A DNA stretch of 64,000 nt from a phage, in NCBI GenBank assembly GCA_028522875.1, contig GCA_028522875.1_3659.1, one strand, 5' to 3'. Each line of letters opens with the position of its first letter. Position 1 is the first letter of the stretch. A program made the position numbers and the translations under genes. A model generated the notes under the pieces. The model was not told the origin of the DNA and made no database searches. It was given only the letters and a program-made list of their open reading frames with translations. Positions 9,157-51,444 of the stretch are shown here, piece by piece.

Positions 9157-9185
9157 TTGACAATCAGTATTTGCTATGATAAAAT
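9157..9185 (+). promoter_or_regulatory. sigma70-like promoter TTGACA-N17-TAAAAT with TGa extended -10
   Basis: -35 TTGACA 9157-9162; -10 TAAAAT 9180-9185 preceded by TGA; 28 nt upstream of ATG 9214. Confidence 0.55.
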
Positions 9186-9213
9186 CCACCTATCACGTGA
9201 TAATGGAGGAAAC

Positions 9214-9552
9214 ATGGCGGATACAACTAAAAAGCGTCGCCGTAGAGGCAGACCTCTGAAAGAGGAGTCCAACGCCATTCAGCTAGAGAAGAACATCCTT
9301 GATATGAAGGAATCTTTTATAGCGATGGTTCCAGAAGCTCACAAAGTTTTAAGAGAGCTGATGTTGGACCCGAAAACCAAACAAAATATTCGTCAAAGCA
9401 TTGCAGAGTATGTTCTTGATAAGGCAGACCGAATGCAGGAAGAATATGATGAGATGTTTGGTGAAGAGGAAGAGGTGGTAGTAGAAGAGGCTGAAAAACC
9501 AGCACCTTTTATGCCATTTACTACAGAAATACAGCCTGTTAGCAATAGCTAA
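9214..9552 (+). CDS. hypothetical acidic protein (113 aa)
   Basis: ATG 9214 behind GGAGGA RBS; Lys/Arg-rich N-terminus, Glu-rich C-terminus (EEEVVVEEAEKP). Confidence 0.4.
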   Translation: MADTTKKRRRRGRPLKEESNAIQLEKNILDMKESFIAMVPEAHKVLRELMLDPKTKQNIRQSIAEYVLDKADRMQEEYDEMFGEEEEVVVEEAEKPAPFMPFTTEIQPVSNS

Positions 9553-9561
9553 AATATTTTC

Positions 9562-9590
9562 TTGACAAACTTTGCTTAACAGTGTAATAT
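9562..9590 (+). promoter_or_regulatory. near-consensus sigma70 promoter driving the tRNA cluster
   Basis: -35 TTGACA 9562-9567, 17-nt spacer, -10 TAATAT 9585-9590; first tRNA starts at 9649. Confidence 0.6.
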
Positions 9591-9648
9591 TGTAAACATG
9601 GTCTCCCACCTTTTCTGGCGGCTAAGGTGTAAAAGAAAGCCACCCAGT

Positions 9649-9723
9649 GCCCTGTTAGCTTAGTGGATAAAGCAGCGGCCTTCTAAGCCGTTGACACTGG
9701 TTCGAGTCCAGTACGGGGTGCCA
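9649..9723 (+). tRNA. tRNA-Arg (anticodon TCT)
   Basis: Manual fold: acceptor GCCCTGT/ACGGGGT, D-arm, anticodon stem GCGGC/GCCGT with loop CTTCTAA, T-arm ACTGG-TTCGAGT-CCAGT, encoded CCA. Confidence 0.8.
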
Positions 9724-9727
9724 AATT

Positions 9728-9814
9728 GGGGAGTTATCCCGTAGAGGTAGCGGTGTAGACTGTAAATCTATTGTCATTGCGACTCGGGTGGTTCGACTCC
9801 ACCACTCCCCACCA
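9728..9814 (+). tRNA. tRNA-Tyr (anticodon GTA), long variable arm
   Basis: Acceptor GGGGAGT/ACTCCCC, anticodon loop CTGTAAA, variable-arm hairpin GTC...GAC, T-arm GGTGG-TTCGACT-CCACC, encoded CCA. Confidence 0.8.
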
Positions 9815-49408: not shown

Positions 49409-49420
49409 TCAGGAGATAAA

Positions 49421-50461
49421 ATGTCAAAACCTAGTTTTCCATTAGAGATTTGGGCAGAGGAGGATCAGGTTCTGCCTAACACCCACAGACAGAACAGGCT
49501 ACGCCCGATTGATGATTTGTGGAGAAAAGGTTGGGATCTTGGTCAAAAGCCCTCATGTGAAGAACTTAACTATATTTTCAATATGCTCGGAACTTGGGCA
49601 AAATACATTGCTGACGAGCAGATCCCCGCTCAAGAAGGCCGTTATCTGGTACGTGATAATAACTTGAGTGATCTTTTGAACATTCCTGTTGCCCGTAGAA
49701 ACCTTGGGATTATTACTAAGGAAGAAGCAGACGCCAGGTATGTAAAAGTTACAGGTGATACAATGACAGGCCCGTTGGGTTTGCAACGTATCAACTTTAA
49801 AGCTGCCGAGACAGATAAGGCTTGGATAGAGACAACTATTGGCCCAGATAAGACAACTCTCGACTTTGGGCTAAGTGATAATACTGGGTCGTTTGATGAT
49901 GGTGGTACATCTACAGTAGATGCGTTTCGTTGGAGATTCCAGCCAACTCAGCCGGATATTAATCCAGAGTTCACTTTGATGTACCTTAACGCGATCACGG
50001 CTAACCGTGCGCTGTTGAAAGTGGTCGGCAATGTTGAAGTTGTCGATAACATGAGGTGCAATAACCTTACTATCAGCAATACAGCAACATTCACCAACTG
50101 TAATGTGGCTAGTCAGTTGACGACTGGGTCAGTGTATGTTAATGGAGGTGCAAGTTGTGACAGTATGGTTGTAAGAAGTCAGCACTGTGTTGTCGGTAAC
50201 AGAAATGTGGTGCGCTCTGTGAATGGAGTGACGGCTAACGGTAACGGTGATGTAACAATCACTATCCCGCAGACAGGTGTGCAAGACATCAGAATCGGTG
50301 CAAGACTTGTTGACGGCGTTTCCGAATCTCCAATTCGCAACGGCTACGTTGTCACAGGCTGGCATTTCGGTGACAAAAAAGAGATGCGTGGTTCAACCTA
50401 CTGGGCAGGACCTTTACAAAAACTTGTAAACGGTCAATGGATCACTGTTAATTATGCATAG
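49421..50461 (+). CDS. tail fibre protein, paralog A (346 aa)
   Basis: KVTGDTMTGPL fibre motif; N- and C-termini (…YWAGPLQKLVNGQWITVNYA) homologous to ORF 51476. Confidence 0.55.
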   Translation: MSKPSFPLEIWAEEDQVLPNTHRQNRLRPIDDLWRKGWDLGQKPSCEELNYIFNMLGTWAKYIADEQIPAQEGRYLVRDNNLSDLLNIPVARRNLGIITKEEADARYVKVTGDTMTGPLGLQRINFKAAETDKAWIETTIGPDKTTLDFGLSDNTGSFDDGGTSTVDAFRWRFQPTQPDINPEFTLMYLNAITANRALLKVVGNVEVVDNMRCNNLTISNTATFTNCNVASQLTTGSVYVNGGASCDSMVVRSQHCVVGNRNVVRSVNGVTANGNGDVTITIPQTGVQDIRIGARLVDGVSESPIRNGYVVTGWHFGDKKEMRGSTYWAGPLQKLVNGQWITVNYA

Positions 50462-50475
50462 ATCGGAGGACTAGC

Positions 50476-51060
50476 ATGAAAATACTTCAAGAGTTTAAAC
50501 TTTACCAACCGGGATCTGGCGAATACCACTCCAACAAGGAAACCAAGGAGCTGACCCCTCAAGAGGTTGAGGATTACACCGCATACACTGGGTATTTTTT
50601 ACGTAATGATGATGGCGATTGGTATGTGCAGTCACGAACATTACGACAAGAAAATCCGGGTTGTATCTTCCTACTTGTTGACGAGAAGGGAATTCTTAAG
50701 ACATCTACAGAAGAACCTGATGCCTTATGGCCTGCTCCAGGTCTTCGTGTGGTTATCGCCAAAAAAGAAGAGGTACCAGAAAACATTATGCTTCACCACG
50801 ACGCTTTGCGTTTAGTTGGTGATGAATTTGTCACAGATAATGAATTCTTTGTTCAACAGGCAGAGGGTGTCATAGAGACAGAACTTGCTTGGGCTACTGC
50901 TAGAATTGGTGCCTATCAAGACATGATTGACCTTGAATATGATCTTACTGATGACCAGAAACGTAACATCAGAGATTTGAAAATGTACAGGGTAAAACTT
51001 CTTGAAATAGATACATCTAAAGCCCCTGACATTTTCTTCCCGGAGCGACCTACCCTCTAA
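50476..51060 (+). CDS. possible tail fibre assembly/accessory protein (194 aa)
   Basis: Sits between paralogous fibre genes; GGAGGA RBS; no motif. Confidence 0.3.
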   Translation: MKILQEFKLYQPGSGEYHSNKETKELTPQEVEDYTAYTGYFLRNDDGDWYVQSRTLRQENPGCIFLLVDEKGILKTSTEEPDALWPAPGLRVVIAKKEEVPENIMLHHDALRLVGDEFVTDNEFFVQQAEGVIETELAWATARIGAYQDMIDLEYDLTDDQKRNIRDLKMYRVKLLEIDTSKAPDIFFPERPTL

Positions 51061-51071
51061 GAGGAGGTGTT

Positions 51072-51386
51072 GTGGAGTTGGATTTGGCGGCATTGTACGG
51101 TATCTGCATGGGTACCGTTGTCCCGATCTGTGTATGGGCTTTCAACCAGTGGCACACCAAATGGAAAGGCATTTCCAAGAGGTTAGATGAACTGGAGAAA
51201 GACCTCATCTTAGTGAAAAACAGTATGGTTACAAAAGATAAACTTGATTCCGTTATCGAGACCCGGTTAAGCAAGCTAGAGGCCGATATTAACGACCTTA
51301 AGCAGGATGTCAGGACAGATGTCTCCGGTATCCGAGCTGATGTACAAAAGATTTTGCACATGCTCGTAGAGCATAGTAAAAGGTAA
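51072..51386 (+). CDS. single-TMD coiled-coil membrane protein (104 aa); holin/lysis-regulator candidate
   Basis: GTG start behind AAGAGGAGG; N-terminal TM helix LAALYGICMGTVVPICVWAF then charged helical region. Confidence 0.3.
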   Translation: MELDLAALYGICMGTVVPICVWAFNQWHTKWKGISKRLDELEKDLILVKNSMVTKDKLDSVIETRLSKLEADINDLKQDVRTDVSGIRADVQKILHMLVEHSKR

Positions 51387-51416
51387 ACAAAGGTCAGAAC
51401 GGAAAGGACTCCGTTC

Positions 51417-51444
51417 TTGCATTTTGTTCTCTAAAGTGTTAAAA
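51417..51444 (+). promoter_or_regulatory. promoter TTGCAT-N16-TAAAAT with TGt extended -10, overlapping upstream hairpin
   Basis: Hairpin GAACGGA-AAGGAC-TCCGTTC (51397-51416) followed by -35 TTGCAT 51417-51422, -10 TAAAAT 51439-51444. Confidence 0.45.

What the first reader, a model, noticed from the sequence alone, without database searches (positions are those of the whole stretch)
9157..51444. Recurring promoter family TTGaca-N14-TGn-TAAAAT, also inside the structural module directly after terminators
At least six sites share a -35-like TTGxxx, 16-17 bp spacing and an extended -10 TG-n-TAAAAT: 9157-9185, 21169-21197, 24691-24719, 39811-39839, 45086-45114 and 51417-51444. Four of them lie immediately downstream of GC-hairpin terminators within the head/tail block. 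This implies terminator-promoter punctuated transcription of the structural genes by host sigma70 holoenzyme, or a phage factor recognising the shared TGnTAAAAT element, rather than one long late operon.
Basis: seen in the sequence. Interest (0 to 1): 0.5.

Follow-up and report, generated by a model that had tools for sequence, protein, structure and literature searches.

The report
Known rV5-type phage late promoters
The repeated TTG-N17-TGnTAAAAT sites are real, far from chance, and look like host-type (sigma-70, extended -10) promoters inside the structural genes of an rV5-like coliphage. The same sites were already predicted in the 2013 rV5 genome paper, so this is a rediscovery that still lacks experimental proof.

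Summary
The window comes from a Vequintavirus, an rV5-like E. coli myophage about 96-98% identical to PDX and rV5. All six sites exist as described. The exact pattern TTG-N17-TGnTAAAAT occurs 7 times against 0.09 expected, always on the coding strand and always in an intergenic gap.

The family is not new. Table S4 of Kropinski et al. 2013 (PMC3606486) lists these sites as P074, P056, P051, P040, P036 and P030, with the 'late' consensus TggTAaAAtA.

New here:
- Four of the promoters sit at orthologous positions in five other Vequintavirinae lineages.
- T-35, T-34 and G-33, a TRTGn element and A-6 are conserved while the flanks diverge.
- Within the genus, motif positions vary in 1 of 108 columns against 82 of 794 elsewhere.
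- In rV5, 8 of 9 family members lie in the late unit.
- No sigma-, AsiA- or MotA-like Pfam domain was found among 156 rV5 ORFs.

The most likely reading is host sigma-70 extended -10 promoters that re-initiate transcription after leaky terminators. Five terminators have no promoter behind them, so read-through is also needed. No transcription start-site data were found.

The parts
9157..9185 (+). P074: TTGACA-N17-TAAAAT with TGa. It lies upstream of a 112-aa ORF (9214-9552) and the tRNA cluster. It is an ordinary sigma-70 type site (TAAAATC, so no A at -6).
   Evidence: Identical to rV5 P074 in Table S4 list A and annotated 'Sigma70-type promoter; P74' in NC_011041.
14978..15006 (+). P064 variant: TTGCCA-N17-TGGTAGAATA, between the terminase stop and the portal gene. 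It lies upstream of hairpin 15024-15045.
   Evidence: rV5 P064 in the late-promoter list. This is the only motif column that varies within the genus (TAGAAT/TACAAT).
16652..16680 (+).
   Evidence: Conserved as TTGCAAAA-N-TG(T/C/A)TAAAATAA at the same position in PVP-SE1, CR3, Ro1, pEp_SNUABM_01 and A5-4. Present in rV5 at 56350 but not in the paper's tables.
21169..21197 (+). P056: TTGCTT-N17-TGGTAAAATA, 19 nt upstream of the neck/tail-completion gene (ATG at 21216).
   Evidence: rV5 P056. Orthologous TTG(C/A)TTTTGCT..TGTGGTAAAATA is present in all five other lineages.
24691..24719 (+). P051: TTGACA-N17-TGGTAAAATA, upstream of the tail assembly chaperone gene (24763). It follows terminator 24616-24639 and is bracketed by a 9-bp inverted repeat.
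   Evidence: rV5 P051 is in both lists and annotated in NC_011041. Specific to the genus: other genera have only a hairpin here.
27930..27958 (+). P048 variant: TTGTAA-N17-TGATACAATA, directly after terminator 27898-27915 and upstream of the gene after the tape measure (ATG at 27992).
   Evidence: Orthologous terminator plus TTGTTT-N17-TGATAAAATC in PVP-SE1, Ro1 and pEp01, and TG(C/T)TAAAATAC in CR3 and A5-4. The rV5 paper's MEME run picked TGTTGTAAAAAC 20 nt upstream instead.
39811..39839 (+). P040: TTGCGT-N17-TGATAAAATA, 11 nt after terminator 39779-39799. It heads the g40-g37 tail-tip block, which has no orthologs in the other genera.
   Evidence: It corresponds to rV5 P040. The gap has many substitutions within the genus, but TTG, TG and TAAAATA are invariant.
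45086..45114 (+). P036: TTGACT-N17-TGGTAAAATA, 15 nt after terminator 45049-45070 and upstream of the baseplate wedge gene (45148).
   Evidence: rV5 P036 is in both lists. Orthologous TG(A/G)TAAAATA follows a terminator in all five other lineages.
51417..51445 (+). P030: TTGCAT-N17-TGTTAAAATA, upstream of a tail fibre gene (51476). Its -35 overlaps the 3' arm of hairpin 51396-51417.
   Evidence: rV5 P030. The hairpin shows a compensatory A-T to C-G change in phage B9-1.
24616..24639 (+). Intrinsic terminator before P051.
   Evidence: -22 kcal/mol, z = -5.1, followed by a U-run.
27898..27915 (+). Intrinsic terminator after the tape measure gene, before P048.
   Evidence: -16.5 kcal/mol.
39779..39799 (+). 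Intrinsic terminator before P040.
   Evidence: -16.7 kcal/mol.
45049..45070 (+). Intrinsic terminator before P036.
   Evidence: -16.5 kcal/mol.
51396..51417 (+). Hairpin with a weak U-run before and overlapping P030.
   Evidence: -14.8 kcal/mol. Compensatory change in B9-1.
19571..19594 (+). Strong terminator after the major capsid gene with no promoter behind it. It is one of five such sites; the others are about 10834-10864, about 20490-20528, 25500-25533 and 54560-54581.

Best explanation
These are sigma-70-type promoters of the extended -10 kind (-35 TTGcWWWW, 17-bp spacer, TRTGn, -10 TAAAAT followed by A). They lie in front of sub-operons of the late head, neck, tail, baseplate and fibre block of an rV5-like phage.

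The host RNA polymerase holoenzyme would bind them through three contacts: sigma region 2 on TAAAAT, region 3.0 on TG, and region 4.2 on TTG. Transcription would start about 7 nt after the -10.

Several sit directly behind intrinsic terminators. They would therefore restart or boost transcription after partial termination and so set different expression levels for successive gene groups. Other terminators have no promoter behind them and must be read through.

Shown here: the sequence architecture, non-random occurrence, placement, conservation between and within genera, and restriction to the late unit. Inferred: that they fire at all, that sigma-70 is the factor, and that they are temporally late.
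For: Occurrence and placement:
- 7 exact matches against 0.09 expected, all co-oriented with the genes and intergenic.
- 9 of the 16 gaps of at least 40 nt in the block hold a member.

Four independent sigma-70 elements appear in a 29-site alignment. In the other genomes the -35 was not used to pick sites:
- T-35 in 29/29 and T-34 in 29/29 sites, G-33 in 24/29.
- Spacer 17 bp.
- T-17 in 18/29 and R-16 in 27/29, which is the TRTGn form of the extended -10 (Voskuil & Chambliss 2002, as cited in PMC2613000).
- T-12, A-11 and T-7 are invariant, but that follows from how the sites were selected.

Conservation:
- Orthologous conservation in PVP-SE1, CR3, Ro1, pEp_SNUABM_01 and A5-4 (sheath protein only 52-59% identical), upstream of g63, g56, g48 and g36, while the flanks diverge.
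- Within the genus, 1 of 108 motif columns varies against 82 of 794 other intergenic columns. One-sided Fisher p = 2e-4.

Genome-wide distribution in rV5:
- TTG-N17-TGnTA[ACT]AATA gives 9 hits, 8 of them in the late unit, all co-oriented.
- TTGAC[AT]-N16-18-TAnnnT gives 66 hits, 51 co-oriented in non-late units.

Other support:
- No sigma, AsiA or MotA Pfam domain among 156 non-structural rV5 ORFs of at most 340 aa.
- The rV5 authors reached the same prediction, and two of the sites are annotated as sigma-70 promoters in RefSeq.
Against: - No 5'-end mapping, reporter or in vitro transcription data for any Vequintavirinae phage were found.
- The strict invariance of A at -10 (27/29) and A at -6 (25/29) is not explained by known sigma-70 preferences. 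It could reflect a second specificity determinant.
- -35 TTGC with an A/T-only run at -30 to -28 (29/29) departs from TTGACA.
- P064 lies upstream of a terminator hairpin, which is odd for a working promoter.
- Temporal control is unexplained if unmodified sigma-70 holoenzyme suffices.
- The Pfam scan would miss a novel factor and covered rV5, not this isolate.
Confidence: 0.65

Rival explanations
1. The same DNA elements form a dedicated late class that needs a phage-encoded factor, either an unrecognised sigma-like or sigma-remodelling protein or an activator. In that case the shared TGnTAAAATA, rather than generic sigma-70 fit, is what marks late genes. One concrete version: a phage protein disables -35 or UP-element dependent early promoters ((T)GTTGACA with a variable -10) and leaves extended -10 promoters active. 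T4 AsiA and Thermus phage P23-45 gp39 work this way.
For: - There are two clearly different promoter populations, partitioned by transcription unit in rV5 (early lists; Certrevirus early consensus AAAA-N3-TGTTGAC-N19-TATAAT in PMC7344957).
- A-10 and A-6 are near-invariant across genera.
- TGn/-10 promoters resist AsiA (PMC2613000).
- P23-45 middle and late promoters are of the extended -10 class and escape gp39 (PMC3950348).
- The rV5 authors noted the resemblance to the T4 late motif TATAAATA and an Srd-like gp11.
Against: - No sigma, AsiA or MotA Pfam domain in 156 rV5 ORFs. The Srd-like gp11 hits no Pfam family at E <= 0.01.
- The rV5 paper found no gp55, gp33 or gp45 homologs.
- The -35 TTG at exactly 17 bp is conserved, which a -35-independent mechanism would not require.
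- The motif matches T4 TATAAATA only at AAATA and is out of register at the key TA.
Confidence: 0.22
2. The sites are conserved for a reason other than transcription initiation. For example, they could be binding sites for a DNA-packaging or regulatory protein, RNA-processing signals in read-through transcripts, or recombination boundaries for exchanging tail modules.
For: - Several sites sit at boundaries of blocks that differ between genera. For example, P040 and P036 bracket the g40-g37 block, which is absent elsewhere.
- P051 is bracketed by a 9-bp inverted repeat.
- P064 precedes a terminator.
Against: - The conserved columns are exactly the four sigma-70 recognition elements at the canonical spacing.
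- All sites are co-oriented with the genes and lie 19-45 nt upstream of start codons.
- Pairwise similarity outside the motif positions is unremarkable (P040/P036 13 of 29, against a mean of 9.75 and a maximum of 14), so there is no sign of recent duplication by recombination.
Confidence: 0.06
3. The sites are chance matches in A+T-rich intergenic DNA.
For: - The bare 9-mer TGNTAAAAT is only about 2-fold enriched (9 against 4.6; 3 of 100 shuffles reach 9).
- Generic sigma-70-like matches are not enriched in 20-60 kb (39 against 34.9 and 36 against 37.9).
- Two further TGNTAAAAT sites on the minus strand lie inside ORFs.
Against: - The full pattern gives 7 against 0.09 expected, with 0 of 100 shuffles reaching 7.
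- Conservation is seen both between genera and within the genus.
Confidence: 0.01

Closest known systems
Putative promoters of coliphage rV5 (Kropinski et al. 2013, Virol J 10:76, PMC3606486, Table S4; partly annotated in NC_011041)
   Same: These are the same sites at orthologous positions. P074, P056, P051, P036 and P030 have identical sequences, and P040 has a few substitutions. The late consensus TggTAaAAtA is the same, as are the listed terminators t052, t049 and t041.
   Different: - The paper does not list the g63 site (window 16652, rV5 56350).
- For P048 it picked a weaker neighbouring match.
- It gave no statistics and no comparison between genera.
- It treated the late motif as -10-only and T4-like. 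Here the -35 TTG and TRTGn are shown to be conserved as well.
E. coli sigma-70 extended -10 (TGn / TRTGn) promoters
   Same: TG lies one base upstream of a -10 hexamer that keeps T-12, A-11 and T-7. T-17 and R-16 are preferred. The spacer to a partial -35 is 17 bp (PMC2613000).
   Different: The -10 is fixed as TAAAAT plus A rather than TATAAT. The -35 is TTGcWWWW. Function and sigma dependence are untested.
Phage T4 late promoters (TATAAATA, read by gp55 with gp33 and gp45)
   Same: An A/T-rich 8-mer ending in AAATA at -10 to -6, lying upstream of many separate late transcription units (comparison made by the rV5 authors).
   Different: T4 late promoters have no -35 and no TG. Here both are conserved. 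The key TA is shifted by one position. No gp55, gp33 or gp45 homologs were found, and there is no sigma-like Pfam domain.
Thermus phage P23-45 middle and late promoters with gp39, and T4 AsiA
   Same: The host primary-sigma holoenzyme transcribes later phage genes from extended -10 promoters, while early promoters of the -10/-35 class have a different make-up (PMC3950348; PMC2613000).
   Different: P23-45 promoters lack a -35, whereas these keep TTG. No gp39- or AsiA-like protein has been identified in rV5-like phages, so a class switch is only an inference.
Terminator-promoter pairs and 'moron'-like autonomous units in phage late operons
   Same: The g40-g37 block (39811-45070) has its own promoter and terminator and is absent from the other genera.
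   Different: The block is 5.2 kb of tail-tip structural genes, not an accessory gene, and its promoter is of the resident family type.

Membership tests
rV5 predicted promoter set (Kropinski 2013, Table S4) | Sequence identity and orthologous position with the listed sites | tested here: met
   Five of the six sites are identical to P074, P056, P051, P036 and P030, and the sixth corresponds to P040. The window is about 96-98% identical to rV5-like genomes.
Sigma-70 extended -10 promoters | -10 hexamer with T-12, A-11 and T-7 | tested here: met
   TAAAAT is present in 7 sites, TAGAAT in one and TACAAT in one.
Sigma-70 extended -10 promoters | TG at -15/-14, with a preference for TRTGn | tested here: met
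   TG is present in all sites. T-17 occurs in 18/29 and R-16 in 27/29.
Sigma-70 -35/-10 promoters | -35 element resembling TTGACA at 17 +/- 1 bp | tested here: met
   TTG is present at a 17-bp spacing in 9 of 9 window sites. Across genera T-35 and T-34 occur in 29/29 sites and G-33 in 24/29. Only 3-6 of 6 positions match TTGACA.
Sigma-70 promoters (any class) | Primary transcript start 6-8 nt downstream of the -10, and dependence on sigma-70 holoenzyme | not testable with these tools
   No start-site or in vitro data for Vequintavirinae were found in the literature searches.
T4-type late promoters | TATAAATA at -13 to -6 | tested here: not met
   The consensus is (G/A/T)TAAAATA. Only AAATA coincides, and T-12/A-11 are out of register with T4 A-12/T-11.
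T4-type late promoters | Phage-encoded gp55-type sigma plus gp33 and the gp45 clamp | tested here: not met
   There is no sigma-like Pfam family among 156 rV5 ORFs of at most 340 aa at E <= 0.01. The rV5 paper reports no homologs. Caveats: only Pfam was used, on rV5 rather than this isolate.
T4 middle promoters (sigma appropriation) | MotA box (a/t)(a/t)(a/t)TGCTT(t/c)A centred at -30, with MotA and AsiA proteins (consensus from my own knowledge) | tested here: not met
   Only the P056 orthologs contain TGCTT, and there it lies at -34 to -30 as part of the -35. There are no MotA or AsiA Pfam hits.
P23-45-type extended -10 middle/late promoters | Extended -10 with no discernible -35, and a phage factor that displaces sigma region 4 | tested here: inconclusive
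   The extended -10 is present, but the -35 TTG is conserved. No candidate factor was identified, though an unrecognisable small protein cannot be excluded.

The most novel reading that the evidence does not exclude
TTGcWWWW-N-TRTGnTAAAATA is a dedicated late-promoter class conserved across the whole subfamily Vequintavirinae. It would be read by host sigma-70 polymerase only after remodelling by a still unidentified phage protein with no similarity to gp55, AsiA, MotA or gp39. The invariant A at -10 and A at -6 would be the class-specific determinants. That would be a new route to early-to-late switching in a large group of therapeutic coliphages.
Probability: 0.2. Interest if true: 0.5.

Novelty: already known. 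Interest (0 to 1): 0.2.

Why it matters
rV5-like phages are widely isolated and used as therapy and biocontrol candidates, and they are in the BASEL collection. Their transcription programme has never been mapped. A validated late-promoter consensus would improve annotation and allow late-gene reporters and engineering. It would also frame the open question of how a phage without its own polymerase or sigma factor times its late genes. In itself the finding repeats a 2013 in-silico prediction. The increment here is the statistics, three extra members, the conservation between and within genera, and the point that terminator read-through is still required.

Tried and rejected
1. A first pattern with an 18-nt gap found only an unrelated intragenic site. 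It was corrected.
2. Two minus-strand TGNTAAAAT sites (4831-4860 and 1142-1169) lie inside ORFs and have spacers of 18 and 16 bp. They were not counted as members.
3. I tested whether P040 and P036 are recent duplicates created when the g40-g37 block was inserted. They share 13 of 29 free positions, against a mean of 9.75 and a maximum of 14 among all pairs, which is not distinctive, so the idea was dropped.
4. MotA-box reading of TTGCTTTTG in P056: the register is wrong and only one ortholog group has it.
5. The roughly 670-aa ORF that RefSeq calls 'DNA-directed RNA polymerase' in Ro1, with same-sized ORFs in CR3 and pEp01, was considered as the reader of the motif. It is absent from rV5 and PVP-SE1, which have the motif, so it is not required.
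6. Small ORFs at 6.0-10.8 kb were screened as candidate regulators. Only a weak HTH_36/DUF6945 hit appeared for 6783-7133, below the Pfam cut-offs, and PHROGs calls it a replication initiation protein. Nothing links it to late promoters.
7. A wider distribution was checked:
   - The phi92-like phage Schickermooser lacks the TAAAAT family. It has one TTGACA-N18-TGTTACAAT after its tape-measure terminator.
   - Felix O1 has no such sites and almost no intergenic gaps.
8. Literature searches for Vequintavirinae transcriptomes or start-site maps found none. The one RNA-seq paper that mentions the group sequenced a T5-like phage.

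
Full report
**Identity of the window**

Megablast places the window in the genus Vequintavirus (rV5-like E. coli myophages). It is 96-98% identical over 8-25 kb to PDX, RudolfGeigy, nomo, HdK5 and about 100 other records. The window's + strand corresponds to the minus strand of rV5 (NC_011041). Positions 9-60 kb are the block running from a small-ORF and tRNA region through terminase, portal, capsid, neck, sheath, tube, tape measure, baseplate and tail fibres.

**The observation**

All six sites read as described. 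The spacer is 17 bp in each, and the last site ends at 51445.

The composite pattern TTG-N17-TGNTAAAAT occurs 7 times against 0.09 expected, and none of 100 dinucleotide-preserving shuffles reaches 7. All seven hits are on the coding strand. All lie in intergenic gaps, which make up 4.9% of the block.

Two variants with one change in the -10 also belong:
- 14978-15006, TTGCCA-N17-TGGTAGAATA
- 27930-27958, TTGTAA-N17-TGATACAATA

Nine of the 16 gaps of at least 40 nt in the block therefore hold a member.

The bare 9-mer is only about 2-fold enriched, and generic sigma-70-like matches are not enriched in 20-60 kb. The signal is the combination of elements and their placement.

**Terminators**

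RNA folding confirms canonical hairpin plus U-run terminators just upstream of four members:
- P051: 24616-24639, -22 kcal/mol
- the P048 variant: 27898-27915, -16.5
- P040: 39779-39799, -16.7
- P036: 45049-45070, -16.5

A weaker hairpin (51396-51417, -14.8) overlaps the -35 of P030. The site at 9157 follows a GC hairpin with no U-run. The sites at 21169 and 16652 have no hairpin.

Five further terminator-like sites have no promoter after them:
- about 10834-10864
- 19571-19594, after the capsid gene
- about 20490-20528
- 25500-25533, before the tape measure gene
- 54560-54581

Genes behind those five must be reached by read-through. The block is therefore best described as leaky terminators plus booster promoters, not as insulated units.

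**Already published**

The rV5 genome paper (Kropinski et al. 2013, PMC3606486) reports 33 sigma-70-like promoters and 20 terminators. [quoted passage not shown]

Its Table S4 lists:
- P074, which is window 9157, in the sigma-70 list
- P051 and P036 in both lists
- P056, P040 and P030 in the late list
- P064, P055 and P048 as further late sites
- the terminators t052, t049 and t041

RefSeq NC_011041 annotates P51 and P74 as 'Sigma70-type promoter'. The authors discussed both readings: unmodified host polymerase, or a T4-like late system. They noted the absence of gp45, gp33 and gp55 homologs and the presence of an Srd-like gp11. The finding is thus a rediscovery.

**What was added here**

(a) Conservation between genera. 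I fetched the structural modules of five other Vequintavirinae lineages: PVP-SE1 (Seunavirus), CR3 (Certrevirus), Ro1 (Mydovirus), pEp_SNUABM_01 (Henunavirus) and the unclassified Vequintavirinae phage A5-4. Their sheath proteins are 52-59% identical to the window's.

I located orthologs by tblastn. I then scanned for TGnTA[ACT]AAT without requiring a -35. Four promoters recur at orthologous intergenic positions in all five lineages:
- after the portal gene (TTGCAAAA-N-TGnTAAAATAA)
- before the neck gene g56 (TTG(C/A)TTTTGCT..TGTGGTAAAATA)
- after the tape-measure terminator, before g48
- after a terminator, before the baseplate wedge gene g36

In a 29-site alignment:
- T-35 and T-34 are invariant, and G-33 is present in 24/29 sites.
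- Positions -30 to -28 are A or T in 29/29.
- T-17 occurs in 18/29 and R-16 in 27/29.
- A-10 occurs in 27/29 and A-6 in 25/29.
- The remaining spacer and the flanks carry little information.

TRTGn is the fuller form of the extended -10 element (Voskuil & Chambliss 2002, as cited in PMC2613000).

P051, P040, P030, P074 and P064 are specific to the genus. A phi92-like phage and Felix O1 lack the family.

(b) Footprint within the genus. I aligned the nine gaps from the window, rV5, B9-1, Phage 206 and HdK5. Only 1 of 108 motif columns varies, against 82 of 794 other intergenic columns (one-sided Fisher p = 2e-4). P040 is the clearest case. Its gap and the upstream gene end are heavily substituted, yet TTG, TG and TAAAATA are untouched.

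(c) Partition across the genome. In the assembled rV5 genome, TTG-N17-TGnTA[ACT]AATA occurs 9 times. Eight are in the late unit and all are co-oriented with the genes. TTGAC[AT]-N16-18-TAnnnT occurs 66 times, 51 of them co-oriented in the non-late units. The early sites often have the form (T)GTTGACA, as in the Certrevirus early consensus. There are thus two promoter populations.

(d) No recognisable phage sigma. A Pfam scan of 156 non-structural rV5 ORFs of at most 340 aa found no sigma-70 region, AsiA or MotA family. It found only one weak HTH.

**Mechanism**

The conserved columns coincide with the four DNA elements that sigma-70 holoenzyme reads, at canonical spacing. The -35 TTG in particular is kept across genera. 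A -35-independent system such as T4 gp55 would not require that.

The most likely reading (0.65) is that host sigma-70 holoenzyme initiates at these sites, restarting or boosting transcription of successive structural sub-operons behind partial terminators.

The main rival (0.22) is that the class needs a phage factor, or is favoured after a phage protein disables early promoters that depend on the -35 or UP element. T4 AsiA and P23-45 gp39 work in that way. The class partition and the unexplained invariance of A-10 and A-6 speak for this. The conserved -35 and the lack of any recognisable factor speak against it.

Non-promoter roles (0.06) and chance (0.01) are unlikely.

Nothing here shows that the sites fire, when they fire, or which factor is used. 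No start-site or transcriptome data for this subfamily were found.

**Verdict**

Novelty is 'already known', as an untested prediction. Interest is low (0.2), with a modest upside if the late class turns out to need a new kind of phage factor.

Noticed in passing
window 14978-15045: The P064 variant promoter (TTGCCA-N17-TGGTAGAATA) lies upstream of a terminator hairpin (15024-15045, -14.4 kcal/mol). Its transcript would begin about 10 nt before a terminator. The same order is seen in rV5 Table S4.
   Followed up: partly
window 24698-24735: A perfect 9-bp inverted repeat, TGCACCATA / TATGGTGCA, brackets the -10 of P051. An inverted repeat of at least 8 bp occurs in 2.6% of shuffles. The whole stretch 24691-24763 is invariant in five Vequintavirus genomes, while the 50 nt upstream vary. 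It could be an operator.
   Followed up: partly
window 9192-9201: A 10-bp palindrome, ATCACGTGAT, starts at the expected transcription start of P074.
   Followed up: no
L003 (PVP-SE1) minus strand at about 16517; L004 (CR3) 28057; L006, L008: In four other genera the start codon of the g29 homolog (a small membrane protein) is embedded in TTGAnA-N17-TG(T/C)TAAAAT. This is a promoter-like site overlapping a start codon. The window's g29 (52531) lacks it.
   Followed up: no
window 22677-22703; orthologous regions in L003, L004, L006, L008: Upstream of the sheath gene, four of the other genera share a GC hairpin followed by a second hairpin and the sequence GGCACAnnnGTGCTGGTCAATAA. The window has a different A/T-rich hairpin there. 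This may be a conserved leader element.
   Followed up: no
window 10118-10216: ARAGORN calls a 99-nt 'tRNA-???' with a 4-base anticodon (atcc) and a canonical GGTTCGATTCC T-loop. Rfam's tRNA model does not reach its gathering score here. The element is annotated as tRNA-OTHER in HdK5 and as tRNA-Lys in Phage 206, and it is absent from the rV5 annotation.
   Followed up: partly
L005 (Ro1) 46365-48395; L004 (CR3) 41144-43153; L006 (pEp01) 3974-6016: A roughly 670-aa ORF near the DNA polymerase gene is named 'DNA-directed RNA polymerase' in the Ro1 RefSeq record. Same-sized ORFs lie near the DNA polymerase gene in CR3 and pEp01. No counterpart exists in rV5 or PVP-SE1.
   Followed up: no
window 39811-45070: The g40-g37 block (lambda/PY54-like distal tail, tail tip and J-like proteins) has no orthologs in the five other Vequintavirinae lineages. 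It forms a self-contained unit from promoter to terminator.
   Followed up: partly
window 51396-51417, compared with L012 (B9-1): The hairpin before P030 shows a compensatory A-T to C-G change in phage B9-1, which supports a structural role.
   Followed up: partly
rV5 NC_011041, about 123661-123690 (minus strand): This is the only family-type site outside the late unit (TTGTAA-N17-TGCTAAAATA). It lies upstream of gp210 and gp209. gp209 is a conserved 423-aa protein that borders the structural module in the other genera, so these may be late genes too.
   Followed up: no
window 11565-14974: The large terminase gene is split, with an HNH endonuclease ORF (13311-14006) inside. It is annotated as a three-part join in rV5, and B9-1 and Phage 206 have an uninterrupted gene.
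   Followed up: no
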